Assembly: GCA_040954595.2 (NCBI GenBank)
Contig: CM082578.2
Coordinates: 6,743,519 to 6,807,518, forward strand
Reading direction: 5' to 3'
DNA: 64,000 nt
DNA from: Balanoglossus misakiensis
Lineage: Eukaryota > Animalia > Hemichordata
The stretch's first letter is position 1, and each line of letters opens with the position of its first letter. The notes beneath the pieces are model-generated. The model saw only the letters and a program-made list of their open reading frames with translations, had not been told where the DNA came from and made no database searches. Shown here one piece after another: positions 1 through 42,561 of this stretch. A program made the translations under genes and the position numbers.

Positions 1-1307
1 AACGACCTCTTGTCATCTAATGTCCTAGAGGGATCATTAAAATAGTGTAGCAGGGCATTTAAGATGTTTATTTTTATTTTGCAAAAGCTTTGAAGGGATG
101 GCTTAGCAGATAACAACCTCAAATTGGTATCTCTGATTGTATAGTAAAGATTCAGACAGGTGGAGTCATCTATCGTTCAGTACTACTATTGGACCAGTGC
201 ACATTTATGTTCCAAAGAGCAAAATGTTTTTAGAAATCACTTATCATACAACTGTGCACATTCAGAATTTTCTGTTTTTCATAAATTATGAGCACCAGGA
301 AGAGCACAGTATGTGTCTGTGTCTCTGCCTTTGTAAGTATGTATGGTATGTACATAAATATGTCTGTGTGTGTTACAAATAGTCCTACTTCCAAGTTTCA
401 TCATACCATGTATGAAACAATGTCATTATTTAAAGCGTAATGGCAAGAACTTCGCTGATGTATTTGACCTATAGGTGAACTCAGTAGGAATCCTATCTAT
501 GGCAGCTGATAAGAGCTAGTATAAGCATGTATTTGGTGCATATGATTTATATCAGTGTTTATGCAATAATTTTTAAAACAAATGTTTGTAAAATGAGTTA
601 TGCCAGCTAAAGTATCAGATAAATCACCAGATTACTGGTGATCTTGCTGAATGACTGGCTGTTTTGTTAGTCTTGTCACCACATGACAGCATGAAACGTT
701 ATTGGAATCAATGTAAATTTATTGTTATGATAACGCCACTTTGAAATAGGAACATAACCCTATTTATAATTATGATCATACAGATTTTGAGAAGTATATT
801 GAGTTTAATATTAATGATTAGCTCAATTTGCAATACAAGTGTATTCACCCTCCAGACATCTGTATTTATGGATACTTAACTGTGTGTGTGACTATGTTTG
901 TCAGTGTGTGCATAGATGAATAAAGAATAGGTACACTACAAGGCAGTATCATCAACTAGACAAAGTAGTTAAAACACAATGGTATTGCATATGGGTAGTC
1001 CCTATTCACTGTTTAGTGTTACTACAGAAATGAAATTCCCTTTGGGAAAAATGTCAGTGACTGAGACCACTTAGTGACTTTATTTATTTTTTTATAGTTG
1101 AATGTTTCTTGGACCTGGTAATTTGGGAGTTTTCCCTCAATATCATAGCTGCATGATTACAGTAAATGGGTTTCAATGAACCAAGTTGATTTTATGAAAA
1201 TATTTGATCACGAAAATTGAATTATTATCATACAAAAAACATGAGTTCCAACTGAGATGTTCTGTTTTGTTTGTCTTCTCTCAGCCGAAGCAAGTGATTT
1301 ACCAGCT

Positions 1308-4295
1308 ATGGAAACCCCAAAGAAGACAAAATACATACCCCACGCTTTAACCATAGACACCAACACTTCACACTTTGAGGAGCCGTCAACCACAATAAAG
1401 GAAGGTGCCAACACACGCGTGTCAGGTCTCTCACCAACATCGAGCAGTGAAGAGATGGAGGGTGGTGTCGGTCACAGCCAACCGTCGAATATGAACTGGC
1501 TAACAGAGTTAGCAATCATTGCAACAAGTCCACAAAGTCCTTTACTTCAGAAGACATCTCTTTCAAGGTAAGCTTCCAGTTCCACAGAGGGGAAACTTAT
1601 AATATCATTCTGTTCCATCACGTCCCTAAGCCTTGAAATTCTCTGATGGTGACTGCTCACTTCTTTCACCATTCAATCATTAGGGTATGCCCATATTACA
1701 TTGAATGGATTACCAGTCAGCCTCTTTTGATCTTTAACCCTTTCACCCCCAGATCCCTCTGTATAGTTCAAATCTTACCATAGAAAACAATGGGTCTGGA
1801 CTTAACCATGGTGGTGAAAGGGTTAAAATCGTATACTCTCCGCTGTTTATTAACGTAGAACAAATGCATTGTACTTAGGCCAGAATAATTATGTAAATTA
1901 TTGAACAATTTCTGTTGCCATTTCAGAAGTTCATCTTCCACTGTTGATAGATCTTTACACAGCTACGCAAAGCCTCCAAGATCGCCAAGTCCACCACCGG
2001 CTCTTATCGATCACTGTGAAGTCATCTACTCCTCATCATCAATACCCCCAAGCAATGAAGTGTTTGTGGAGGATGAGGCCAGGGTCACGTCATCATCACC
2101 ATTTCCAGCATCTCCGAAACTCAGTGAAAGTTCATGCGGCACTTGGTCCCATTCCTGGCCGACTGCTGTGTGGCAGTGTTTTCTAAAAGGTACTTTTCTC
2201 GGTAGATTTTCCAAACCTCAAAATATACCTCTGATGTTTTTCGAATTTGGCAAAAATTATAACAGCCTCTATCTATATGTCACTGCACCCCCTCATGGCC
2301 ATTAGCACTTTCACCCCTTGTTCTCTCTATAGAGGTCCAACCTTACTGTAGGTTTGGACTGAACTGGTGAAGGGGTTCAAACGATATGTCTAGCGGCTAG
2401 CCTAATTCACAGAATTCTGATATGTCTGATTTCTGTTTATATATTTCAAAAAGTAGTCATTCTGGCTGTTAATGACAACTTTTTTGACACACAGGTCTTT
2501 TCACTGAAACATTAGTGTATGATAAACTGCGTGAATCTGATTCTGATGCCTGTCCAATAAATTGTTCCTTCTCTCCAAACCCTGATGCCCACATTTCCTT
2601 TCTTCTAAATTCCCAGGAACAAAAGTCCATTTCACATCGGGGCCAAAGACTGACTGGCGATTGGCTGAAGACATCGGCAACAACGAACTGTTGGCGGCCC
2701 AAGCCAATCAGCAGCAAGACAGTGAGGGCAGAGGTCAGTCTTCAACCTCAGGGTATGCACCAAATGGCTTGCGCGTCATCAAGATCGAGGAGCCTGAAAC
2801 AGAGTCTAAGAAGGACAGTGTACTCACGCTTGCACTGACTCCAGATTTACTTGATCAGCCCAACCTTATAGCAGAGTGCGAGCTGGAACATCCATTCTAC
2901 GTAAAAGATAAAGGTAAGGTTGAAACTTTAATAGTAGGGAATTATTTTTGCTCGCTTCATAAAAAATCAAAGGATCTCTCAGAACGTTCTCATATAAGGT
3001 TATCTGTTTATTCAAAATACTGGCATCTGACAGAGTGTACAAAACTTAAGTCTTAAACGCTTACTTGACACTATTTGTGTTATTTTCCTTCTCTAGGCTG
3101 GTCATCTTACAACCCGTCTTTGACAGTGGAGAAGTACGGCATTCCATGCTGTGAGTTGGAATGTGGTGATGTGTGTCTGGCGCCCTCACACCCTGAAGCT
3201 ATTAGTTTTCTAGACACTGAAGTCTTTGAAAGCTTTAAAAGGTAATCAATCGCATGGTTACATAGTTTTCCAAATCACTCAAAGGGGACAAAAGGAAGAA
3301 CAAAGTCTTTATTACCATTCCATTCCCTTGTACCCCAATACGCGTACACATTGACTTTGATATACCATTGTTGCAAAAGAAAAAAAAATCAGTATCTCTC
3401 TACATTCCTAACACAGTCATGCAATTATTACATTGACAGCTTTGACTTCACTCCAATGGACTCATCAGCTGTCCTGGCGCTCAGTAGCATGGCTAGACAC
3501 AGGAGAGATTTGGAGACAAGTCCCAAATCGCCTACCAAGTCTGGTGCCCCAGTTTCGCCCAACAGACAGAAGAAGTACAAGGCGGAGCCAAGCCGTGGCA
3601 AGAGACCCATGAATGCTTTTATGCTCTTTGCTAAGAAGTTTAGATTGGAGTATACACAGTTGTACCCAGGGAAGGACAACAGGTGAGATTTTGCCTTGGC
3701 ACTCAACATACAGATCTTGATTTACTTGCATTCTGAAAAATAAACACTAGCACACTTTAGAGGGCGCTCTTGATGTACTGACTGAATCACTGTTTTGCAC
3801 GTGGCAGGGCAATCAGCGTCATACTTGGCGATCGCTGGAAGAAAATGAAAGTGGAAGAACGGAGGGTGTATGCTCAGGAAGCCAAACTGCTTGCCGAAGA
3901 ACACAAAAAGATACACCCAGATTGCTGGAAGAGGAAAAGATCCAGCTCCACGGTGAGTATGCAAGGAATTCTTGTCAACTGTAATGAGTTTCATTTTCAG
4001 CAATCATGCTCTCTGCATGCTAGCTTTTGTTTCATGAATTCTGGGTGTCGTTAATGCCCCGGGTGAAATTGGATGGGATACCTATGTTGATGAGTCTGTT
4101 TCGGTTTTCCTTGCCGTGTTGGTATTTCAGTGCTCTTTCCAGAACAATTACTTTATTTTGGGGGAAAACAATAGAAACTCATTATCATAACAATTAACCA
4201 TATTATTATGCAAATTAGCCAATACTGTATCCGAAATGATTGTATTCCTTTGACCAACCTCTTCTGCATTCTCTTTCACATTTCAGTCACTTTGA
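1308..4295 (+). CDS. HBP1: HMG box-containing protein 1 (AXH domain + Sin3-interaction motif + HMG box); possibly 5'-partial
   Basis: Exons 1285(ATG 1308)-1567, 1927-2189, 2617-2913, 3097-3241, 3440-3682, 3808-3952 and 4287-4295 all have GT-AG ends and stay in frame (1362 nt, 453 aa from ATG 1308). HBP1 hallmarks: WLTELAIIATSPQSPLLQ, SLHSYAKPP, AXH domain (WPTAVWQCFLKG...EHPFYVKDKGWSSYNPSLTVEKYGIPCCELECGDVCL), Sin3-binding-like DFTPMDSSAVLALSSMAR, and HMG box KRPMNAFMLFAKKFRLEYTQLYPGKDNRAISVILGDRWKKM. The frame is open to the 1285 acceptor, so upstream coding exons may exist. The last 9-nt exon (SL*) is the least certain. Confidence 0.93.
1734..1826. mobile_element. ~90-bp piggyBac-like MITE (family A, copy 1)
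   Basis: TTAA-CCCTTTCACC ... GGTGAAAGGG-TTAA terminal inverted repeats with TTAA on both sides; the interior is shared with other copies in the window. Confidence 0.75.
2302..2380. mobile_element. Family A MITE, degenerate copy 2
   Basis: ctttcacccc...agaggtccaaccttac...tttggactgaactggtgaaggggtt aligns with copy 1. Confidence 0.6.
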
Positions 4296-14335: not shown

Positions 14336-16156
14336 ATGTTAATAACGGTGAAGATACTCCAAGCCCAAGGAAAAGAATGTAGTATAGAGGTTTGTTGAAA
14401 CGAGATTCCGTACACGTATCCGTATTTCAATTTGTTCCACAACTTACGTACGACCTTACTTTCTTTATGGTCGAAAGTTGCCCCTAATCCTAGATATCTG
14501 GGCTTGCAGGGAAGATTGTTTCCCTTCAACTTCACATTCTAGTCGAATTTTCGAGCTCCTAGGTTTCATACAAAGTACTTTATGTTTAACATATCCAGTC
14601 GCCAGATCAATTTCTTCTATCGAATGATGATGATTACCTGTAATGATACATGGGCATGCAGTGACTAGTGTTACTAGTACATTCTAGTGCAGTGTGCAAG
14701 CTTTGTCCATAATATCATGTAGTCTCTGTAAAACGGAGCTGATTACTTAAGGAAATTGAATCAAATCCTGTTCACAAAGTTTCATTCAGTCATATGGCGA
14801 ACGAGCTATAAAAAATAGGTTAGCTTATTCGTTGGCCTTTTATTTGACATAAAATTAACCAGCTGTAGCTGAATTCCGACGGATCCTCTGCAACTGGTAA
14901 CCAAAGTGTTAACGTTTTTGTTGCATACACTTTATCTTGATGGTACGAAACAGTTTTTAAACAATTGTTTGTTATACATTGTACTGCTAATAGTCTGTTG
15001 TCACTTAGGTCACATCTTCACATTAACAAGGATACAATGAGGGGAACGTAACAATTAATTTCTAAATTGATGAAAATTAGACACCACAAATTCCTGGATA
15101 GAGAACAATGCTATAACTTCAACTTTTTCCACTGCAATCTTGCAGGTTACAGCAACAGATTCAATTTCGGCAGTCAAAGAACTAATATCAAGAGAATTAG
15201 ATGTTCCCGTAGATCAACAGAGATTAGTATTCAGAGGGAAAACGTTATCAGGTGAGTGTACTGACGACAAAGATTTGCAGTGTTACTGTCAGATCGCCGT
15301 CGTAATCTTGAAATCTGAATTAAATTTTAATCCGGACTTGAAATCAGTTTTTAACAATAAGACGGCTGTCTGCACAAACCACAGGGTGCATTGACAAACC
15401 AAATGCAGTTACCACTAAATGCCTCGTAACTATAGTCACATGTTTTCTCTCTTTTTGGAAAAAAAGATGGGCAAAGTCTCGGGGACTACAACATTGGACC
15501 CGGCACAAAACTTCACTTGGTCGTCAAGAGAACTCAGGATGAAAAGTCGGGAAGTTTTCAGAAATTGCCACCACAGACAACTGCGCTGTGGGATCAGCTG
15601 AGGCCAGTTCTTAGTAAACATTTCAAAACAGAAGATGTTGACAAAGTTATACACCATTTTCAAAAGGTACGGGCCGGTTTTGCAAAGTTTTGTACACATT
15701 TTTGGTCATTTCTTTGCTGTAGAAATGTCATTGTCTAATATCATCTTCCAAAAAAAAGTTTTTTTAAATTCATTAAAAATATAGAACAACAGTTACTATA
15801 CTCAACCTACTATTTCAAGGAGAAACTGTCAACCTACTATTTCAAGGAGAAACTGTCCACCCCTATTTCCATGTATAGAAGTCCGGCACTGCCATTGAGA
15901 AACATGGAGGTGGACCAAACCATGGTGGTGACAGGGTCAAGCTTGATGTACCAGCCTCAGAGTGTTAAACATTCAGAAAACTTCTGCGCTATATATTCTA
16001 GTTTTAAACTTCTATTTTAATTTTTGCTTTTTTCTCCCCCGACAGGAGTTTGAGTCGAGCATTTCAAATTTAAGCCTGGATGATTTAGAAAGGATCGCCA
16101 TCTATAACCTTGAGAGAAGGCAGCAAGGCCATGATTCTGCATCAAGTAGCAGCTAG
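14336..16156 (+). CDS. UBL4A: Ubiquitin-like protein 4A (Get5/BAG6-complex subunit)
   Basis: Exons 14336-14389, 15146-15251, 15467-15666 and 16046-16156 join in frame (471 nt, 156 aa). N-terminal UBL domain MLITVKILQAQGKECSIEVTATDSISAVKELISRELDVPVDQQRLVFRGKTLSDGQSLGDYNIGPGTKLHLVVKR, plus C-terminal LSLDDLERIA motif typical of UBL4A. Confidence 0.9.
15855..15940. mobile_element. Family A MITE, degenerate copy 4
   Basis: ...gtccggcactgccattgagaaacatggaggtggaccaaaccatggtggtgacagggtcaa; preceded by a 28-bp direct duplication (caacctactatttcaaggagaaactgtc x2). Confidence 0.5.
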
Positions 16157-17115: not shown

Positions 17116-19960
17116 CCCAATCTTTGAAATCTCTTGCGTGATTCCAGTGACAACCAGATTCAAATCACTTGAAAATACTTGTGGTTGATTGCCAAGTGCA
17201 GTAATACAGATAGAATGTGCAAAATGCCAGAGAGAAGGAAAAATTGCTGTGGTCCAGAGTTGCAAATTAACGAATGAGGTATGGGAAAAAATTTCAGCTG
17301 TTTTTTTAAAACATAGATGGTGCAACCAGCCTCAGAAATAGGTCATGTGATAGTTACATTTTAACAGTTGCTTGTGTTGCACAGAAGAGGAAACACGTTT
17401 CAAAGCAATCGATTTTCTACAATGTGTTAATGTCAAGTTATACAGAGTTGTGTTTTGTTGCTAAGGTGGTTGTGTAATTTGTTTTTATTTCAAAGATATG
17501 TTGCCTATTAAAGACAATATGGAAACTCGTACATGTAAATTTCATATGCTCAGCAGCTCCAACAAATTTTGCCATTTTTGTGTTTCTTTTATGATTTGAA
17601 ATAAATATTGATTTTTCATTTTAAAATCATTTCCAAAATAGTGTAGATTCTTCAGTGGATGTAACTGTAAATGTTCATTGTGAGTGAAATGAACTCGCAC
17701 AGAGGTTGGGAAATAACTTTCCAGTTAGGGGCGGTGCATGGCTGTAACTTTGTTATGTTTCCAGGCTGTGTATCCACTGCAGTTTCTTGTTCTACTCCCT
17801 TCGTCCCATCATTGTTCATCACAGCCTATATATATGTAGGACCACAAATGCTATTGTTGTCGATTTAATTTTGGTCTGGACTAAAGTTTGAATGTGAACA
17901 ATAACTCCTGTGTACACATTCTCTAACAAGCTTAATACTTGGGAATAAACAATATTTCACAAACCAAAACTTAAAATCATCTAGGGTTACAGTTTACTCA
18001 GTCTCTTAAATTGACAAAATAAATCTACCTGGTTTATTTTGAAGGACATGATACCAAACTTATCAACTTTATCTATCCATCAAGTCTTTTTTTTCCTCTT
18101 GTACATGGTGTACACGCACTGATAGTTTTCAACTTTCTGAAACTCTACTTCAGTTGAGGTTTCATATCGTTTCTGATGCATCGTGTAGTCATAAAATAAC
18201 CAAATCATACAAGGTGGATTCCCTGCCTTCAAAATTAAAAGCGATTTTTCATAAAGAGGGAGGGAGGGGGGGTTTTGTAAAAGTAGCTGTACATTTACAC
18301 ATTGTGAATAATAATAAATTTTTGAGCTTTCACTATCAAACAAGTTTGTTCTCTATGTTCAACCCTTTCACCCCAATAAAGGTCGAGTTTAGGAAAGCCC
18401 CCGGACTGGCTGCTATAGACAAGTTTGGCTGTGCCATTAATAATGCTAGCTGACATATAGCACACCTAACAATCTGTGCTCAAGGCAATTCACACATACT
18501 TGTACCAAGTTCCAGTCTGTCGGTATCCGAGAATCAGTACAGTCAACACACAAAAATGGACAAAACGCACAAAAAGTTTCCTGTCAATAGTGCAATTGTT
18601 TATTCTATCAATGCAAAATTCAACACACAACAAGTTTCAAAGAATGGTCGTCCCTGCACATGTAGACCGAGAAACCCCAACACCTGAGACTGGAGGAGCA
18701 CAGTGAGCGACGGGGTTCCCAGTCTAATGCACATGAAGGCTGAATAATTTTATTTGCTGTGCGTAATAGATGCGTGAAAAAACAAGGACCTTGAGGGGTC
18801 TGGTGGATTTGGAAATGGGCAGTTTTCTACAGCTGCCGGTATTACCATACAATTCCTTATTGAAGCCCAAATCCAAATAAATTCCACCACCCTGACTTCG
18901 AGGACCTTGTTGTAGAAACAATTTTTGCAACTTGAGATTTCCAAAAATTGCCCTCTCAAATTTCCTATGCTTGCCTACAATGGAATATACTAAGTAAGTG
19001 AATACTGACAAAGGTGTGCTAATAGGATTTCTTACTGAAACCACTCACTGTTTCTCATAGGAATTCTATAGTATTTCTGTGTGCATGCATAAACGCACTG
19101 CTACTGGAATACTGTAGCCAGGGGGCCTCAAAACCTGTTATTATTTATATTATACTCTTCACAGTCAATATCAGGCTAATAACGGGTAAAGAACAAATTA
19201 TGATGTTAAAAAGGGTGAAAACAATTTATGGTACACTTAGGCTTATGAGGAAAAGTAAGAGACCATATTCTGAAAATACGCATCAACAAACCTTGATGAA
19301 AGTTGCCTTTTCTAGTGATGGTATTTTCGACAAAGATAAGTTGTCATAAGAAACACCCGATATGAAATAATATGACAAAATATAACTTTTCTAAACTGCC
19401 TATTGTTGAAAAAGTATTCTACTATCAGTAAAGTAGGTGAAGTATGTTGGGGCTCAACAACAGCTGTCATGTCATGATAAAATGTTTCAAATTGAGGAAT
19501 GGCCGATGTACCGTCCCTCCGGATGATCATGAAAATGACAACTGCTCTCGGTGTTTTTTTTAAAGCAGACACTCAGGTCTCTTTGGGGAATTATATGGGC
19601 ACTGTTGCCCAATTTTAAATAAAATATACTGAATTTGCATGTCACTGGAGATAAATGGAACAAGTGATGGGAAACACGCATTTTTTTTACAGACAGTGCC
19701 TGTAGAATTTTCCCTCAGTAAACTACATTCGAGGGTGTTTATTTTTGTCAGCAGATATTCTGAAAGTTTCGTAGACAAAGGCTCCATTTTATTACCAAAC
19801 TTCCAGCATGACATGTAAGAATAAGTTCTCACTATATACTGTTAACATAAATGCGAATAAACCCATGCTATCCTATCCCTACGTTAAGACGAGATAATCT
19901 CAGCACCAAATTAACAACGTTCATTTATCTCCAGCAACACACAAACTACACGCGAACTGA

Positions 19961-20031
19961 TCTGTGGAGTTATCAAGTCCCCACCCACTCAACAGCGGAG
20001 TTTTCAGTGGAAACCGTCATTCTTACACATT
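19961..20031 (-). promoter_or_regulatory. SECIS element (type II) in the TXNRD/TGR 3'UTR
   Basis: Minus strand reads UGUG-uaaga-AUGA-c-GGUUUCCACU-g-AAA-ACUC-cgcuguu-GAGU-g-GGUGGGACU-UGAU-aacuc-CACA. It has the AUGA/UGA core, a ~10-bp helix II with one bulge, unpaired AAA, an apical mini-stem and a short helix I, and lies ~530 nt after the Sec codon. Confidence 0.82.
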
Positions 20032-20551
20032 CCGTGTACTCAGACATCACAGTTCTCATCCTCGTCAATTCTCTCCCTGCTGTTGACTACCCAGAAATCA
20101 CACCGTCTCTCTGTCTCCATATTGGCTACTGCAGTCTCTTTGGACATGACGCGAACGACAGGCAACATCACAATGAGTTCACACATTGTCAAAAAAAAAA
20201 TGTTTATATTTTGAATTCGCACATTGTCAATTTTGTTTTTATATTTGTATTTTCATGATTGGGTAAAACAAATGTATCTCAAAACTAGATTTAACACAAT
20301 GTAATGATCAATTCATGCTGTTTAAGTTTACTGTGGTTATTGCTTCTCTGCGATGCTGCCTGGACTTAGTCCTATTCAAAACCTCCACTCATAGGAAGTT
20401 GTGTGCCACATTCAAATTGTGAAATCTATTACAGCGCACATGTCTATTGATATAGACGACTGCAGCAAGCAATGATTTTTTATGTGTGTGTGCAAGGTAT
20501 CTTTTTCTAGAGACAAGACATCAGTTTTCTGGGTAGTGAACTAGCAGGGAG

Positions 20552-31543
<10,992 letters not shown>

Positions 31544-32925: not shown

Positions 32926-34405
32926 ATGAAACACAACAATTGGTTTTCAGTCGCAAGCAGACTTCAATTGCTCTTTCTAATTGCCGTGTGTGTATACGTC
33001 TTGCTACATTGTAGTAGGCCTATTCTGCAGAGGAGGATGACACATCTCTTGCAGCGAGGTGAGATGATTGTGATTGTGTGCATCGTATGGGTCTATCTGT
33101 CATCAAAATGTAAATTTAATCGTAAGCTTATGTGTTGCACAATATTGGAACAATTAATCCAAATTATACGATGTGTCTTTGCAGGGAAACACAAAAGTGG
33201 CAGAACTGAACCAGGCCAGTCTCCAAGAGGAGCCACGTGTCCACATCAGGGGCAAGACAGGAACGTTTCTGAAGAGACGGTAACTCACATCTTGTTGAAC
33301 TTTGTTGAACATCACAAACTTCCATGAGATTGATCTGTCAGTCATACTCAACGTGAATGCATATCGTACTCTGGATTGTCGGTTTTGTGTCATTCCATAT
33401 ACATTGTCCAATATTTACTGTTCAACCTGAAGTGACAACTATATATATATTTAGCTTTTCTGTCTCTCCACGTAGGATGTGAAAGAACTGAGACACCAAC
33501 TTGTTGCCGAAAGTTACACGATTATGCGAAATTCCACAGCATTGGACGGTTATGACGCAATCACAACTCAGCAAAAACGACAGGATTTGATGAGGAAGGT
33601 ATGTGATCAGAGAAACGACAACTCCATCACGCGGGATGACGAGCAGTACGCCAATGTATTCGTTGTCGACGAATACAAATTCATGTATTGCGCCGTCCGG
33701 AAAGTGGCGTCGATGACATGGAGTCACGTGATCGACGACTTGAGGCAACACGCGGCGGGGAGAGGCGCAGAAGTGAAGAAGAGGCTTCTGTCTTCTTACA
33801 CGGACGAAGAGATCGCGCAGAGACTGAAAAGCTACAAGAAGTTTATGTTCGTTCGCGAACCACTGCAGAGGGTTTTCTCCGCTTGGAACGACAAGTTCAG
33901 AAACACCCACGCGTTGATGAAGTCTGAGTTTGAACGCTTGATAGGCCCGCACATAATCGGGAATGTAAGACCCCGGGACGACAACGTTCCGACCGACACC
34001 GAAAGACTACCGCCGCCAGCGGCGGGGTCCAATCTGAACCTGACATTCGTCGAATTTGTGAGATATCTGACGGATGTTGTCACCGACATTGAGCAAGAAG
34101 ACATGCACTGGAATCCGTACCACCACAGGTGTCACCCATGTCACGTCCGGTACGATTTCATCGGCCATTACGAGACTCTAAAAGCGGACGCAGACGAACT
34201 TCTGCGGGAGCTGTGCATCGCCCACCTTGTGAAGTTTCCGTCGAGTCAGTCGGCGTCCTCCCCGCTGGCTGCCCAGTACTTTTCCGGGATAGACGACCAG
34301 ACCGTGTACCGCTTGGGAGAATTATACCGACAAGACTACGAAATGTTCGGTTACTCTATCAAAGATTCCATCGATCTATTAAAATATACAGATCTGAAAA
34401 ACTAG
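32926..34405 (+). CDS. Carbohydrate sulfotransferase, CHST11/CHST13-like (Sulfotransfer_2 family, type II Golgi membrane protein)
   Basis: Exons 32926-33058, 33185-33279 and 33476-34405 join in frame (1158 nt, 385 aa). N-terminal TM anchor LQLLFLIAVCVYVLL, 5'-PSB YCAVRKVASMTW, 3'-PB KFMFVREPLQRVFSAWNDKF, HW...CHPCHVRYDFIGHYETLKADA, LYRQDYEMFGY. Confidence 0.9.
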
Positions 34406-37400: not shown

Positions 37401-38023
37401 ACAAAAAATCTTGTATCAGTTTGATAAGAAAATTTTCCTTTGTTTAGAATGTTGGAAATAAACGATACCCAAATTCTGAGACAATATTTTGCAATAATTT
37501 CTCCAGAGATAATTCCACCCTGTAAAGAAACTGTCTTATGATGGCATTCATTAAAATTGTTAGAGTAAATATAGACCTATTATGAATATTAGTGTCCAAA
37601 AGCTGAAATAATTCGAAAAAAATCTCAGTGTCTGTATATAAATGTACCATTGTATAAAACCCCGGTTTTAAGAGCATTCCTACATTAATAAGTTTCAATA
37701 TTTATTGCGACACTAGTAATGATTGTTCCGTCGATGATAGTTTTAAAAGTTGTTGATATCCTGTGACTTTGCATTATTTATGACGGATAACCATTTTGTG
37801 GCGTGCCGTAAACGAGAGACAGAAAAGAAAATGGCGGGATCGATTGTCGGTTGCACCCGCCCGAGTTCTCAATCGCCGCGAAATAGCTTCGCGGGGACAC
37901 TCGGTTCGGTCAGTCAGCAGTGACGCCGATAGAAGACACAGAAAAACGAACAAGACCAAAAGAAGGCGCAAACAGTGTTGCTTGGTGTACTAAACATCTC
38001 CCGGGCCATAGTAGTGTCGTATG

Positions 38024-38116
38024 ATGCCACACGCTGTACTTGGCAAAATTAGAACCACTGACGTCATGTCGGTTACAGTGTGAATTCTAACTATTGCCAA
38101 ATACAGTCAGCGGCAG
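38024..38116 (-). ncRNA. mir-182: pre-miR-182 hairpin; mature 5p at ~38101-38077
   Basis: Minus-strand 5p UUUGGCAAUAGUUAGAAUUCACACU (miR-182 seed UUGGCAA) pairs with 3p AGUGGUUCUAAUUUUGCCAAGUA; lower stem cugua/uacag and ugcc/ggca. Confidence 0.93.
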
Positions 38117-38652
38117 CCAAGTGGCAGACAGGCAAATTCGACTACCCGTAAGCTAAAATATGGCATTTGCGTGTCGTTAGATCCAAAAGAAAAATCGACG
38201 TTTGCGAATTCGGCGTCACGTCTAGGGAGAACATACGTGTAGATTCAAGAGCATAAGGCTTACTTATAAAACAGAAAAGCTTCAAAATCAGACCAGAGCC
38301 GTACACCAACATGTTCGATAATCAAGGGAAATAACTAAATCCTTTAAATAAGTTAACTGTTCCTGGATGTTGTGAACACGAAAAAATTGACCCAAAAATA
38401 GAAAGCAATACAAAATGATAATCATAATGGTGTTAAAAAATACTTGCGCGTAGAGTCCAAGTTTTGGCGCGACACATCCGAAAATCCGTTCACGTATCGC
38501 ATGAGACCGACAGTGGTACGCATGTATGGTGGGACGGTAAAGACGACGCAAGCGATATGCCTAACGACTTTAAAGTGATGGCGTACTGATTCGTCTAAAT
38601 TCTGACAACGCCAGAATAAGTAACGGGCTGAGTGGCCCGGATGAAGGATAAC

Positions 38653-38728
38653 CACGCCCTCCTTGCCACTAGCATACTTTCGCTGACTGAAATAACAGCA
38701 AAATGTGCTAGTGCCAAAGAGGAAGTGA
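38653..38728 (-). ncRNA. mir-96: pre-miR-96 hairpin; mature 5p at ~38718-38697
   Basis: Minus-strand 5p UUUGGCACUAGCACAUUUUGCU (canonical miR-96 sequence) pairs with 3p AGCGAAAGUAUGCUAGUGGCAAGGA; lower stem ccuc/gagg. Confidence 0.95.
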
Positions 38729-39071
38729 CCGTGAACTATTCTTGCATAAATCACCATAAATTACCATAATAATTGGATTTCAAGCTTACCCACGTGATGA
38801 AAATTACCGCAATGCTTAAAAGGGACCCCTTAACGAGTTGTTTTAATGACAAACACACAATTCAGAAGTTGCAATAAAGGTCAATTTAAACATCTCCTTA
38901 ATGCTAGAATAATTACTCAAAAGGAAGCAAGGCACAGTTCTGATTTGCAAGCACGGCTAAGGCTCGGTGCAGCGACAGAAGCATGATTAATGATGTACAC
39001 ACACACACATATACACACACACACAGCCAGGGAAATGATGCAAGCATGTTGCAGGGATGTAAAAGCTCTCA

Positions 39072-39148
39072 GCTTTGTACATGGCACCATCGACTCCACT
39101 GAACAAAGATATGGGCGACAGTGAATTCTATAGTGCCATATACAATGC
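39072..39148 (-). ncRNA. mir-183: pre-miR-183 hairpin; mature 5p at ~39140-39119
   Basis: Minus-strand 5p UAUGGCACUAUAGAAUUCACUG (miR-183/263 family, seed AUGGCAC) pairs with 3p AGUGGAGUCGAUGGUGCCAUGUA; lower stem uugua/uacaa. Confidence 0.94.
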
Positions 39149-42093
39149 AAAGCAAAGCAAAGCGAAACAAAACAAGAAAAACCCAGCCAAAACAAAATTC
39201 CAGCGTTCATGGCAGCATAAAACGACGGATAGAGCGAGGTGTGCGAAGCTTGCAGGTGGTTTACTTGCTCGGGTGCAGGTGTAACTGGTTGTCGGGACAC
39301 TGGGAGCACAGAGAACGCCGGGAGTACACGTACTAACGGAAATAAAGTGCAGCGGGGTCACAGGTCACTCAGTGGACAAAGAGGATCGACGAAGTCACAT
39401 TTAGTATTCGGGTGCAATAGAGGTGACTAATAAGTCGACATCACTTTGGCATTGACAGCCACACATACACTTCACACATAGGATGACGTGACAATGAAAC
39501 TAAATGAGGGACAGACGGCAGAGGTCAGGCAAGACTAGAACAAATTATTAGAACTCATTTAATACAACTCTCTCCCATTGCTTGTCGTCTCAACTGCAGT
39601 AAAAGCCGGTGATAGGAAATAAGGCCAAAGTCTTCCCCCACCCCCCAAAAAAACACACCTATTGACAACAATTCTAGATATTAAAGTACCTTTTCACAGA
39701 GGCACCGATCAGCACAAAGGATTTTCCCACCGATACTGTTTGCATATCGTGATTACTCAGGTATATTTCCTGACCATTCCAATCTGGACCTCAGCCGTAA
39801 TGGAATAGTCATATCACACGCTGTCATCTCGCTGAATTGACAAACACTGTTTTTTCCCCTCTCTTGGGTGCATCGTCTGAAATAAAAAAAACACAAGATA
39901 TTGAAGCTGATTTATTTTAAACCATCGTTATCGGTTTAAGTGACATCTGCATAAAAGGCCATTTCGCCATCATGGCTGTGGAGTGTATACCCTGGTCGCA
40001 CGGCGTAATACAATTAATCACAGCTCAGGTATAAATAAGGCGCCCAGAAGGAATTCTCGTTTTTATTGACCACTTTGAAATCACAACCGCTAACGTCACT
40101 TTATCGAACACATAAGCAATCACACCTATTTTTCGCACCTATTTAAAAACAACAAAAAAACAATTCAATTTTATTTTAATTTGCCAATCTTACTTCATGA
40201 TACACAATTTAGCCGCCTCGGTACTGTCCCACCTATAACGCCGACATAATTTTGTACTGCCTCCCAGTTGACATTTCCTACGTACGCGGATTGAGTAGAT
40301 ATGTCAAAGGTCATCATAACGCACCAACAGATAAAAGGAACCGATTAAAACCGGCGGCCTGTTATGCTACGCTTCTAAAACATATTTAAAAAATTAAACT
40401 AATAATCGAAATCTTGAAGCTCGTCCAAGAATGAACAGGAAGTAATAAAGAAAACGTCCCCTTTACAAATCTGACGAGATGAACTTTACAATGGTTTTAG
40501 GTTAACTGGTTTTATGTTGATAAACCACACAATTTTATGAACCTTTTGAGAAATTTTGAATATCTTCTTTTGATATTAATGGGTCTGATACAACCATACA
40601 ATATATAACAGAGGCGCTGTGGACCAGTTGCGGGGGTATCGAACTTGCTATTGGAGATAGTGATTTGTCAACCCCTATTCGTCCATTGGAATCACGTCAT
40701 TCAAAATAATTTATAATGAAATTTATTTCAATCCTTTAACCATTAATACTAAGAGGTTAGTGAAATCTAAAAGTAGAAAGAAAACAAATGATTAAATGCC
40801 AGATACGACCCGCACGAGTTAGTATTCCCGCGCTGAGAAACGATTTATTTTGTTTTAATTCAGGTCAATGCTAAAAATCAATAAAGACGTTAGGTTTTGC
40901 CTGTCGGTCAACAGCGAGGGCAATTTACTGCGTAATGTCGAGCGTCTGCCGTTTTTTTCAATTTCTTATTTCTTTTCCTTCGATAAGCCCCGAATGATAG
41001 CAATTAATCTTGTGGGGAGACAGTTTTGTTCTATATTTATTTCTCCGGTAATACCCACGGGGATTTTTGTCAAGGCCAGCAGACTGAATGATGCCACTCG
41101 GGATAATATTGTCAAGTCATAACCTCAAAAGTAAATTCTTGGAGTATCAATCTGAATTGTTTATCGTCTAGAAAGAACACTGCGTCATTTTTTTGTTTTA
41201 TCTTAAGACTGCCAAAGAATAACAACAAAAAAAAACAGACGCGAAAAAACATGATATGGATCACGTGAATTAAACCATATGTATAAACTGCTAAAGATAC
41301 CGTTTACACGCACATTTCAACTAAAAGTACTACGGTAGCGAAAAGGCAAATACATTGTATATCGCAAACGTTGCTCATACGTTACAATCGCGTCACCACG
41401 GTAGCATCTTCAGAGGTCTCAGTGCCCGATTTGTTCGATGTAACCATAGGTGGAAAAATATAAATATTCATATTTCCACGATTCCCGCCCCATGTCAAAT
41501 ATGAAGATTTTTATGACAGCGATACCCCGGTATACCCTGGATCAATCTGATCTGACAGTCCGTGGAGCTGTTGTAACACACACCACGCGATAATCACTCT
41601 TGAAATCAACAACAGCAAGTGAAAACCAAATTAAAAGATTATGGGGTACGTTTCGCAGCTATGATAGCGCTAATTGAAAGAATAAAAAGCAAGGATTACG
41701 CTTTGCTGTGGTGGGGGGGGGGGGTCGATGAACACAGTGTCACCATATATTTAAAAAAAGATACTTTTTTGTTTATTTCAAATTTCTCCGGCGTGCAGAA
41801 ATAATCAAATAAAAAAAAAGGTTAAAACACGAAGACTGTGTTGATGAAGACGGCAATGCGTGATTTACTTCCTTTTGAAATCAAACTGTGCGGAGAAAAC
41901 GTCACTAATGTTCACCTTTTCCCCCATTTCTTTCTGAGTCCATACATCTAAGTGCATCCCACATACGCAGTGCTCTAACGTGGCACTTTTCTTCAGACAG
42001 ACTCGGTGATTAATATCTCATCTTACTCTTAACAAGTCGTCTGATTTGATCTCCGCATGTCACTTTCAAGATGAATGCGGCTCCTGGGCTTTG

Positions 42094-42561
42094 GTCGCCA
42101 TGGCAGCAAAAACATGGCAGCATCCTCAGCTGGAGCAGTCGGTAATGCTGGCGCGGTGTAGATAAGAACAGGCGATGCGCGTCCAAGGACGGGGATGAAC
42201 AGCGCGCGCGCGTGTGCGTTCGCGTGCGGCTGGACTGGGTCAGTTTCAAATGGCACAAAGTACGCCCTCCACAGTTTTCAACACGGGGGCAGTTTCCAAG
42301 CGGATGCTGCATGTAAGCACCGACGGACAGAAAATATATGAACGAACGAAGGGGGACTCGGAAACAGCAACCGTAAAAATGCAGATTTTCGCTTCAAATA
42401 CATTTTCTAAAACTTTTATGCAGGTCGGCGCCATGACGCTTGGTCGACGAAACAGCTGGGCTCGTCAATTTCCCCTGCATTTCCACGATATGCTTCTTCT
42501 GAAGTGCAAGTGAACACGCATGGATGAACCAGCCGGTGGTTTTATACAATCCACCGGAAGT
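42094..42561 (-). promoter_or_regulatory. Candidate core promoter region for the pri-miR-183/96/182 transcript
   Basis: Minus-strand TATAAAA at 42546-42540 with Inr-like TCACTT ~35 nt downstream, ETS ACCGGAAGT at 42553-42561, X-box-like GTCGCCATGGCAGC at 42094-42107, in GC/CpG-rich surroundings; ~3.4 kb upstream of miR-183. Confidence 0.3.

What the first reader, a model, noticed from the sequence alone, without database searches (positions are those of the whole stretch)
38024..39148. Complete miR-183/96/182 sensory microRNA cluster hidden in an apparent gene desert
Seen: three pre-miRNA hairpins on the minus strand within 1.1 kb, in the order 183, 96, 182. Mature arms are UAUGGCACUAUAGAAUUCACUG, UUUGGCACUAGCACAUUUUGCU and UUUGGCAAUAGUUAGAAUUCACACU, and none is visible in the ORF track. 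Established: this bilaterian family is a polycistron expressed in ciliated sensory neurons, hair cells and photoreceptors, and has the same order in vertebrates. Inference: all three come from one pri-miRNA. The UAUAG middle of miR-183 resembles the echinoderm/hemichordate form as I recall it.
Basis: partly seen in the sequence, partly recalled or inferred. Interest (0 to 1): 0.85.

Follow-up and report, generated by a model that had tools for sequence, protein, structure and literature searches.

The report
Acorn worm miR-183/96/182 microRNA cluster

Summary
Confirmed and ordinary. Three minus-strand hairpins start their 5' arms at 39140, 38718 and 38101. Each folds as one stem-loop (z -5.5 to -7.0). 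Each hits a MIR-96-family Rfam model, below the curated cut-offs. The arms match published mature microRNAs: miR-96 21 of 21 to sea urchin, sea star and Saccoglossus; miR-183 22 of 22 to sea urchin; miR-182 22 of 23 to Saccoglossus and sea star. The neighbouring sulfotransferase is closest to Ptychodera and Saccoglossus, so the host is likely an acorn worm. A contig of a second species holds all three hairpins in the same order and strand, with unalignable spacers. All 12 placed substitutions avoid the paired duplex. The order is reported as conserved in deuterostomes, with linkage in Saccoglossus (PMC4551935, PMC3145563). One primary transcript and sensory expression are inferred from orthologues; no small-RNA data were available. 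Small lineage changes at miR-183 position 10 and miR-182 position 12 lie outside the seeds.

The parts
39078..39140 (-). predicted pre-miR-183 (63 nt); 5p mature arm 39140-39119, predicted star 39099-39078; extended stem about 39152-39066
   Evidence: 22 of 22 to sea-urchin miR-183; fold z -5.56; Rfam mir-263 (clan CL00093, shared with mir-182) E 3.6e-08; duplex geometry; present in second species
38660..38718 (-). predicted pre-miR-96 (59 nt); 5p mature arm 38718-38697, predicted star 38682-38660; extended stem about 38732-38646
   Evidence: 21 of 21 to miR-96 of sea urchin, sea star and Saccoglossus; fold z -6.95; Rfam mir-96 E 0.0011; no difference listed in the second species across the precursor
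38037..38101 (-). predicted pre-miR-182 (65 nt); 5p mature arm from 38101 (23 nt to 38079 or 25 nt to 38077), predicted star 38058-38037; extended stem about 38113-38025
   Evidence: 22 of 23 to Saccoglossus and sea-star miR-182; fold z -5.50; Rfam mir-182 E 1.3e-08; second species differs at 3 positions, all in the loop
38629..38763 (-). block around pre-miR-96 conserved in a second species, about 30 nt beyond the star and 45 nt before the mature arm; holds the lower stem and a CNNC motif
   Evidence: contig of run X3 aligns over 38629-38763 with 6 other letters and 1 gap; motif position
38025..39152 (-). whole cluster, inferred to lie in one primary transcript whose start and end are unknown; 5' arm spacings 422 and 617 nt
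   Evidence: same strand and order; co-transcription inferred from orthologues (PMC4551935 passages)
33476..34405 (+). nearest protein-coding neighbour, not part of the cluster: carbohydrate sulfotransferase exon, convergent with the cluster; used to place the host
   Evidence: Pfam Sulfotransfer_2 E 2e-46; best relatives Ptychodera flava 64%, Saccoglossus kowalevskii 52%, all others 42% or less

Best explanation
[quoted passage not shown] Shown: sequence, order, strand, fold, and conservation of the duplexes in a second species. Inferred: RNA polymerase II makes one minus-strand transcript starting somewhere above 39152. Microprocessor cuts out precursors of about 63, 59 and 65 nt, helped by basal UG, apical UGU and 3' CNNC motifs. 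The 5p arms load into Argonaute. Their seeds (positions 2-8: AUGGCAC, UUGGCAC, UUGGCAA) repress overlapping but distinct sets of 3' UTRs during the maturation of sensory neurons and photoreceptors. Odds: orthology about 0.97, processed to mature microRNAs about 0.93, single transcript about 0.85, sensory-enriched expression about 0.75.
For: Arms match published mature microRNAs with 0-1 mismatch and no chance matches. Single stem-loops with 19-20 paired positions in the 22-23 nt mature arms, and star arms of 22-23 nt at a 2-nt offset. Basal UG at -14/-13 in 2 of 3, UGU at the arm-loop junction in 3 of 3, CNNC starting 17-19 nt past the 3p end in 3 of 3; background rates 0.07, 0.12 and 0.17 (motifs described in PMC11701709 passages, positions recalled). 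A 3103-nt contig of a second species carries 182, 96 and 183 at record positions 1652-1731, 2240-2375 and 2610-2712 on one strand; the spacer between 182 and 96 is 508 letters against 519 here and does not align at 80%. 12 of 12 placed substitutions fall outside the paired duplex (66 of 165 testable positions; hypergeometric P 9e-6), and the two in the miR-183 star hit exactly its two mismatch positions. Order conserved in deuterostomes and single transcript mapped by RACE in mouse (PMC4551935). Linkage and neurosensory miR-183 expression reported in Saccoglossus (PMC3145563).
Against: No small-RNA reads and no transcript for this species were available, so processing and expression are not shown. 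All three Rfam hits are below the curated cut-offs; the best model for the first hairpin is mir-263, and mir-2011 nearly ties mir-96 on the middle one (29 vs 30.2 bits). pre-miR-96 lacks the basal UG, the miR-183 CNNC starts at +19, the edge of the recalled window, and the second species loses the miR-183 junction UGU. Three of the 12 differences in the second species' miR-183 piece and all 6 around miR-96 are not placed by the tool, and most of mature miR-183 lay outside the range where differences are listed; a second run shows 1 unplaced difference in 39119-39152. Secondary start sites for miR-182 are reported in mammals. miR-183 is highly expressed in whole sea-urchin embryos (PMC3247247), so expression may be broader than sensory cells.
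Confidence: 0.88

Rival explanations
1. The three microRNA genes are real, but miR-182 has its own promoter in the 96-182 spacer, or the three are regulated separately.
For: Secondary start sites upstream of miR-182 are described in mammals (PMC4551935). A 34-nt piece of the 96-182 spacer (38326-38359) matches a short contig in run X3 with 4 differences, probably by chance.
Against: Precursors are only about 360 and 560 nt apart on one strand. No TATA-like or AATAAA motif lies between them on the minus strand; the first AATAAA downstream is at 37706. The spacer does not align in the second species.
Confidence: 0.1
2. The cluster is real but in this animal serves mainly larval ciliary-band or general embryonic regulation, not sensory-cell maturation.
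For: miR-183 is among the highly expressed microRNAs of sea-urchin embryos (PMC3247247 passages). No expression data for this species.
Against: Sensory-cell expression of miR-183 is reported in Saccoglossus and amphioxus (PMC3145563) and in Platynereis larvae (PMC3939940). The seeds are unchanged from those relatives apart from position 1 of Saccoglossus miR-183.
Confidence: 0.15
3. The hairpins lie in an intron of a long protein-coding host gene with short exons on the minus strand and are co-expressed with it.
For: The frame scan only covered stop-to-stop frames of 62 aa or more, and no whole genome or RNA run was available.
Against: 0 of 156 such frames in 34.4-64 kb reach a Pfam cut-off. 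CpG observed/expected is 1.12 over 30-64 kb against 0.49 over the gene-dense 1-30 kb, which argues against a methylated, constitutively transcribed gene body here (inference from invertebrate gene-body methylation, recalled). The sulfotransferase 3.6 kb downstream is on the other strand.
Confidence: 0.06
4. The hairpins are chance stem-loops or dead copies.
For: Stem-loops of similar energy are common in the window (35 pass a loose filter). Rfam scores are below curated cut-offs.
Against: Exact or near-exact 21-23 nt matches to three related published microRNAs in the known order, none in shuffles. Substitutions in a second species avoid the duplex.
Confidence: 0.01

Closest known systems
miR-183/miR-96/miR-182 of the hemichordate Saccoglossus kowalevskii (mature sequences in PMC3247247 Figure S7; linkage and sensory expression as cited in PMC3145563)
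   Same: miR-96 identical over 21 nt; miR-182 22 of 23; same seeds at positions 2-8; reported linked in the genome
   Different: miR-183 here starts with U, has A at position 10 and lacks one base in the middle relative to Saccoglossus; miR-182 has U, not A, at position 12. Saccoglossus spacing was not seen.
Sea urchin (Strongylocentrotus purpuratus) and sea star (Patiria miniata) miR-183/96/182 (PMC3247247 supplements; PMC4551935)
   Same: miR-183 identical to sea urchin over 22 nt; miR-96 identical to both; same gene order reported
   Different: Cluster spans 1104 nt here against 5122 bp in sea urchin (PMC4551935); miR-182 differs from sea urchin at positions 10 and 12 and from sea star at 12; miR-183 differs from sea star at 10
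Vertebrate miR-183/96/182 sensory-organ cluster (MirGeneDB MIR-96 cluster; Rfam RF00702 mir-182, RF00669 mir-96, RF00706 mir-263)
   Same: Order 183-96-182, one strand, same seeds, 5p mature arms
   Different: 96-182 gap about 0.56 kb here against 4.2 kb in human and 3.6 kb in mouse (PMC4551935); central bases of 183 and 182 differ; Rfam scores below curated cut-offs; the human neighbours NRF1 and UBE2H (recalled) were not recognised in this window

Membership tests
MIR-96 family (miR-183/96/182) cluster | Mature 5p arms and seeds homologous to miR-183, miR-96, miR-182 | tested here: met
   22/22, 21/21 and 22/23 to published ambulacrarian sequences; seeds
MIR-96 family (miR-183/96/182) cluster | Three genes on one strand in the order 183, 96, 182 within a few kb | tested here: met
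   1104 nt span on the minus strand; same order on one contig of a second species
MIR-96 family (miR-183/96/182) cluster | Reaches the Rfam curated score of the family models | tested here: inconclusive
   Hits with E 1.3e-08, 3.6e-08 and 0.0011 but 45.7 of 71, 40.8 of 51.3 and 30.2 of 65 bits. A database threshold, not a biological criterion; the models' taxonomic make-up was not checked.
MIR-96 family (miR-183/96/182) cluster | Co-transcription as one primary transcript | not testable with these tools
   No run on record as RNA holds the stretch, and only contigs were available
MIR-96 family (miR-183/96/182) cluster | Expression in ciliated sensory cells and photoreceptors | not testable with these tools
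   Reported for Saccoglossus, amphioxus and Platynereis; not tested in this species
Canonical animal microRNA gene | Single stem-loop, at least 16 paired bases between two 20-26 nt arms, loop of 8 nt or more (criteria recalled) | tested here: met
   19-20 paired of 22-23; 14-20 nt between the arms
Canonical animal microRNA gene | Reads from both arms with homogeneous 5' ends and 2-nt 3' overhangs | not testable with these tools
   Geometry is compatible, but the star ends were derived by assuming the offset; no small-RNA reads were available
Canonical animal microRNA gene | Conservation pattern: arms fixed, loop and flanks drift | tested here: met
   12 of 12 placed substitutions outside the paired duplex; spacers unalignable at 80%; one comparison species only
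Canonical animal microRNA gene | Microprocessor motifs (basal UG, apical UGU/GUG, CNNC); common, not required | tested here: met
   UG 2 of 3, UGU 3 of 3, CNNC 3 of 3 at +17 to +19; expected positions recalled

The most novel reading that the evidence does not exclude
The cluster is the sole target of a CpG-rich, probably unmethylated regulatory desert of 30 kb or more, and is switched on directly by the ciliogenesis factor RFX through the X-box-like site at 42107-42094, 3 kb upstream. That would wire the sensory microRNA cluster straight into the cilium-building programme in an acorn worm. In addition, miR-183 position 10 changed from G to A twice, in sea urchins and in this lineage, because the base faces a U in the star arm and both G-U and A-U pair.
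Probability: 0.08. Interest if true: 0.45.

Novelty: new member of a known kind. Interest (0 to 1): 0.12.

Why it matters
Modest. It supplies a correct annotation that protein-based tracks and Rfam cut-offs both miss. It adds a compact (1.1 kb) hemichordate data point to a cluster already known to be conserved across deuterostomes. It offers ready probes for marking sensory cells in an acorn worm. It does not change what is known about the family. The two central substitutions are outside the seeds and are predicted to have little effect on targeting.

Tried and rejected
Rfam at curated thresholds: 0 hits in 64 kb. Sequencing runs: no RNA holder listed; contigs only, so ends, strand and level of RNA cannot be read. 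Runs X10 and X2 laid nothing on the miR-183 stretch; the tool says this can be false. A fourth family member in the window: the seed-like 9-mer occurs 4 times on both strands, and the fourth (6816, plus) folds at only -12.2 kcal/mol; no further MIR-96-family Rfam hit. Antisense microRNAs from the plus strand: the folds are 10-15 kcal/mol weaker; not supported. Overlapping frames 38920-39357 and 38425-38760 (minus): no Pfam hit; treated as incidental. RFX control: a relaxed X-box pattern matches 21 times in the window (some are the two strands of one site) against a shuffle mean of 9.8 and maximum of 19. The strict pattern matches 3 times, none within 10 kb upstream of the cluster. None of the 20 listed of 43 papers mentions miR-183. 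Kept only as a weak lead. Allelic variation in run X1: 0 of 37 placed variant sites lie in the hairpins (binomial P 0.004; 4 more sites unplaced), but the 96-183 spacer is also invariant and variants cluster, so this was given little weight. Two weak Pfam hits (DUF4271, Ornatin; E 0.006-0.009, below cut-off) were taken as noise. Pierce et al. 2008 is not held and Campo-Paysaa et al. 2011 was seen only as a citation. MirGeneDB 2.1 and 3.0 passages gave no hemichordate detail. MirGeneDB and miRBase themselves could not be queried.

Full report
Observation. Each 97-101 nt segment folds as one unbranched stem-loop at -40.3, -42.3 and -43.5 kcal/mol, z -5.56, -6.95 and -5.50, with 0 of 200 shuffles as stable. 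The plus-strand versions are 10-15 kcal/mol weaker. Rfam gives no hit at curated thresholds anywhere in the window. At E-value threshold the three best hits in the 2.5 kb around the finding are these hairpins: mir-182 (E 1.3e-08), mir-263 (E 3.6e-08, same clan as mir-182) and mir-96 (E 0.0011). Folding alone would not single them out, since 35 distinct 80-nt stem-loops pass a loose filter in the window.

Identity. I compared the arms with mature sequences in the supplements of PMC3247247 (rows seen). miR-96 is identical over 21 nt to sea urchin, sea star and Saccoglossus. miR-183 is identical over 22 nt to sea urchin, differs from sea star at position 10, and differs from Saccoglossus at positions 1 and 10 plus a one-base indel. 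miR-182 differs from Saccoglossus and sea star only at position 12, and from sea urchin at positions 10 and 12. Each published pattern matches once in the window, and none of 100 shuffles gives a match at up to 3 mismatches.

Host. The nearest gene is a carbohydrate sulfotransferase exon at 33476-34405 on the plus strand (Pfam E 2e-46). Of 85 relatives found, the best are Ptychodera flava (64%) and Saccoglossus kowalevskii (52%); all others are at 42% or less. The host is thus likely an enteropneust hemichordate, perhaps a ptychoderid. This rests on one protein from a multi-copy family. An unreviewed note on another piece of this genome also calls it an acorn worm; I did not count it as independent evidence.

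Anatomy. Assuming a 2-nt offset, the precursors are 63 nt (39140-39078), 59 nt (38718-38660) and 65 nt (38101-38037), with 19-20 paired positions in the 22-23 nt mature arms and stars of 22-23 nt. Basal UG at -14/-13 is present in 183 and 182 but not 96. UGU lies at the arm-loop junction in all three. A CNNC starts 19, 17 and 18 nt past the predicted 3p ends. Local background rates are 0.07, 0.12 and 0.17. These motifs are described in PMC11701709 (passages); their expected positions are recalled. Seeds at positions 2-8 are AUGGCAC, UUGGCAC and UUGGCAA. The 5' arms are 422 and 617 nt apart and the precursors span 1104 nt. There is no fourth family member in the window.

Conservation. Sixteen runs were listed, none on record as RNA. 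I laid 6 of them in two calls. A 3103-nt contig of run X3 (coded organism B) carries the 182 hairpin at record positions 1652-1731 and the 96 block at 2240-2375. A contig of the same length and depth, taken to be the same one, carries the 183 hairpin at 2610-2712. Order and strand are as in the window. Run X6, from another study, shows the same 182-96 arrangement with 508 letters between the pieces against 519 here, and that spacer does not align at 80%. All 3 differences in the 182 hairpin are in the loop. None is listed across pre-miR-96. Of 9 placed in the 183 hairpin, 7 are between the arms and 2 fall on the two mismatch positions of the star. In all, 12 of 12 placed substitutions avoid the paired duplex, which covers 99 of 165 testable positions (hypergeometric P 9e-6, positions treated as independent). 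Limits: differences within about 30 nt of a piece's end are not listed (inferred from the tables), so 3 differences in the 183 piece and 6 around 96 are unplaced, and most of mature miR-183 was outside the testable range; X6 shows 1 unplaced difference in 39119-39152. This is one comparison species. X10 and X2 laid nothing on the 183 stretch.

Surroundings. I scanned 182 of the 183 stop-to-stop frames of 62 aa or more beyond 28.4 kb against Pfam (the other is the sulfotransferase). None reaches a cut-off, including the 156 between 34.4 and 64 kb. Short exons would be missed. CpG observed/expected is 0.49 over 1-30 kb, which holds an AXH-domain gene, a ubiquitin-like gene and a thioredoxin reductase, and 1.12 over 30-64 kb. 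In invertebrates with gene-body methylation (recalled) this suggests the cluster sits in an unmethylated, non-housekeeping region; this is inference. No TATA-like or AATAAA motif lies between the hairpins on the minus strand. AATAAA occurs downstream at 37706, 36777 and 36520. One relaxed X-box match lies at 42107, but such matches are common.

Mechanism. Most likely one polymerase II transcript carries the three hairpins; Drosha/DGCR8 and Dicer release three 5p microRNAs; and their near-identical seeds repress overlapping target sets in maturing sensory cells. Sequence, fold, order and selective constraint are shown. Transcription, processing and cell type are inferred from orthologues. PMC4551935 (passages) reports the order as conserved in deuterostomes, RACE mapping of the mouse primary transcript, a 5122-bp span in sea urchin, and secondary start sites for miR-182 in mammals. 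PMC3145563 (passages) cites linkage in Saccoglossus, sea urchin and amphioxus (written there as miR-182/miR-9/miR-183, apparently a misprint for 96) and miR-183 in potential neurosensory cells of Saccoglossus. PMC5054118 (passages) instead reports miR-182 as absent from the amphioxus cluster. PMC7785829 (passages) summarises the multi-sensory defects of the mouse knockout. PMC3939940 (passages) reports miR-183 in putative mechanosensory cells of Platynereis larvae. PMC10177187 (passages) notes the conserved order and the Saccoglossus 5' A. PMC3247247 (passages) reports high miR-183 in sea-urchin embryos, which leaves broader expression open.

Lineage changes. miR-183 has A at position 10, as in sea urchin, whereas sea star, Saccoglossus and the Rfam mir-263 consensus have G. 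In the fold this base faces a U of the star, so G-U and A-U both pair. Parallel change in two lineages is a plausible reading of four taxa, not a tested one. miR-182 has U at position 12, pairing with an A of the star, where the three published forms have A. The second species shares it. Both changes are outside the seed.

Novelty. The cluster is a textbook conserved one and is already reported in a hemichordate. A table in PMC6713912 (passage) shows that MirGeneDB held 83 entries each for Ptychodera flava and Saccoglossus, so close orthologues are probably catalogued, but I could not view them. In the listings of searches, no title or abstract describes the cluster in a ptychoderid; most subscription papers are outside that library, and I read only passages of 11 papers. 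The scan's own index has no note near this place or on look-alike DNA. Verdict: real, correctly identified, a new species-level member of a known kind; interest 0.12.

Noticed in passing
window 19960-27731 (minus): Thioredoxin reductase gene with an N-terminal glutaredoxin exon (Pfam). The last exon ends Gly-Cys, in-frame TGA at about 20560, Gly, stop, and a SECIS-like element lies at 19960-20030 (Rfam 30.2 bits, cut-off 35): likely a selenoprotein of the thioredoxin-glutathione reductase type.
   Followed up: partly
window 20.5-34.4 kb: Thioredoxin reductase and carbohydrate sulfotransferase are neighbours, head to head. CHST11 is a consistent neighbour of TXNRD1 in vertebrates (PMC13134290 passage) and CHST13 lies near TXNRD3 in human (recalled): possibly an old deuterostome microsynteny. 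Orthology of this sulfotransferase was not tested.
   Followed up: partly
window about 30000: Sharp step in CpG observed/expected from 0.49 (1-30 kb) to 1.12 (30-64 kb), suggesting a boundary between methylated housekeeping gene bodies and an unmethylated region of 34 kb or more.
   Followed up: partly
window 30153-30315, 30440-30535, 22485-22666: Near-perfect inverted repeats, the strongest stem-loops in the window; they look like MITE-type elements and give spurious weak Rfam microRNA hits (MIR821, mir-203).
   Followed up: no
window 38651-38729: The miR-96 hairpin also scores 29 bits against Rfam mir-2011 (cut-off 80), the similarity running along both arms. Chance, or a hint that mir-2011 (an ambulacrarian family, recalled) is a remote relative using the other arm.
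   Followed up: no
window 42220-42094 (minus): G+C-rich stretch with a CGCG run and an X-box-like palindrome at 42107-42094, 3 kb upstream of miR-183; a candidate promoter or enhancer, not above chance by itself.
   Followed up: partly
window 38599-38628 and 38739-38770: Flanks beyond the aligned miR-96 block still resemble the second species' loose ends by eye, so conservation extends further around miR-96 than the stem needs.
   Followed up: no
window 1245-3686 and 15074-15738 (plus): Exons of an AXH-domain gene with an HMG-box-like start (HBP1-like; Pfam AXH, name recalled) and of a ubiquitin-like gene (UBL4A-like, name recalled).
   Followed up: no
window 37700-38550: Run X1 shows two very different haplotypes in the spacers, for example 11 substitutions and 6 gaps in 185 nt: high heterozygosity.
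   Followed up: partly
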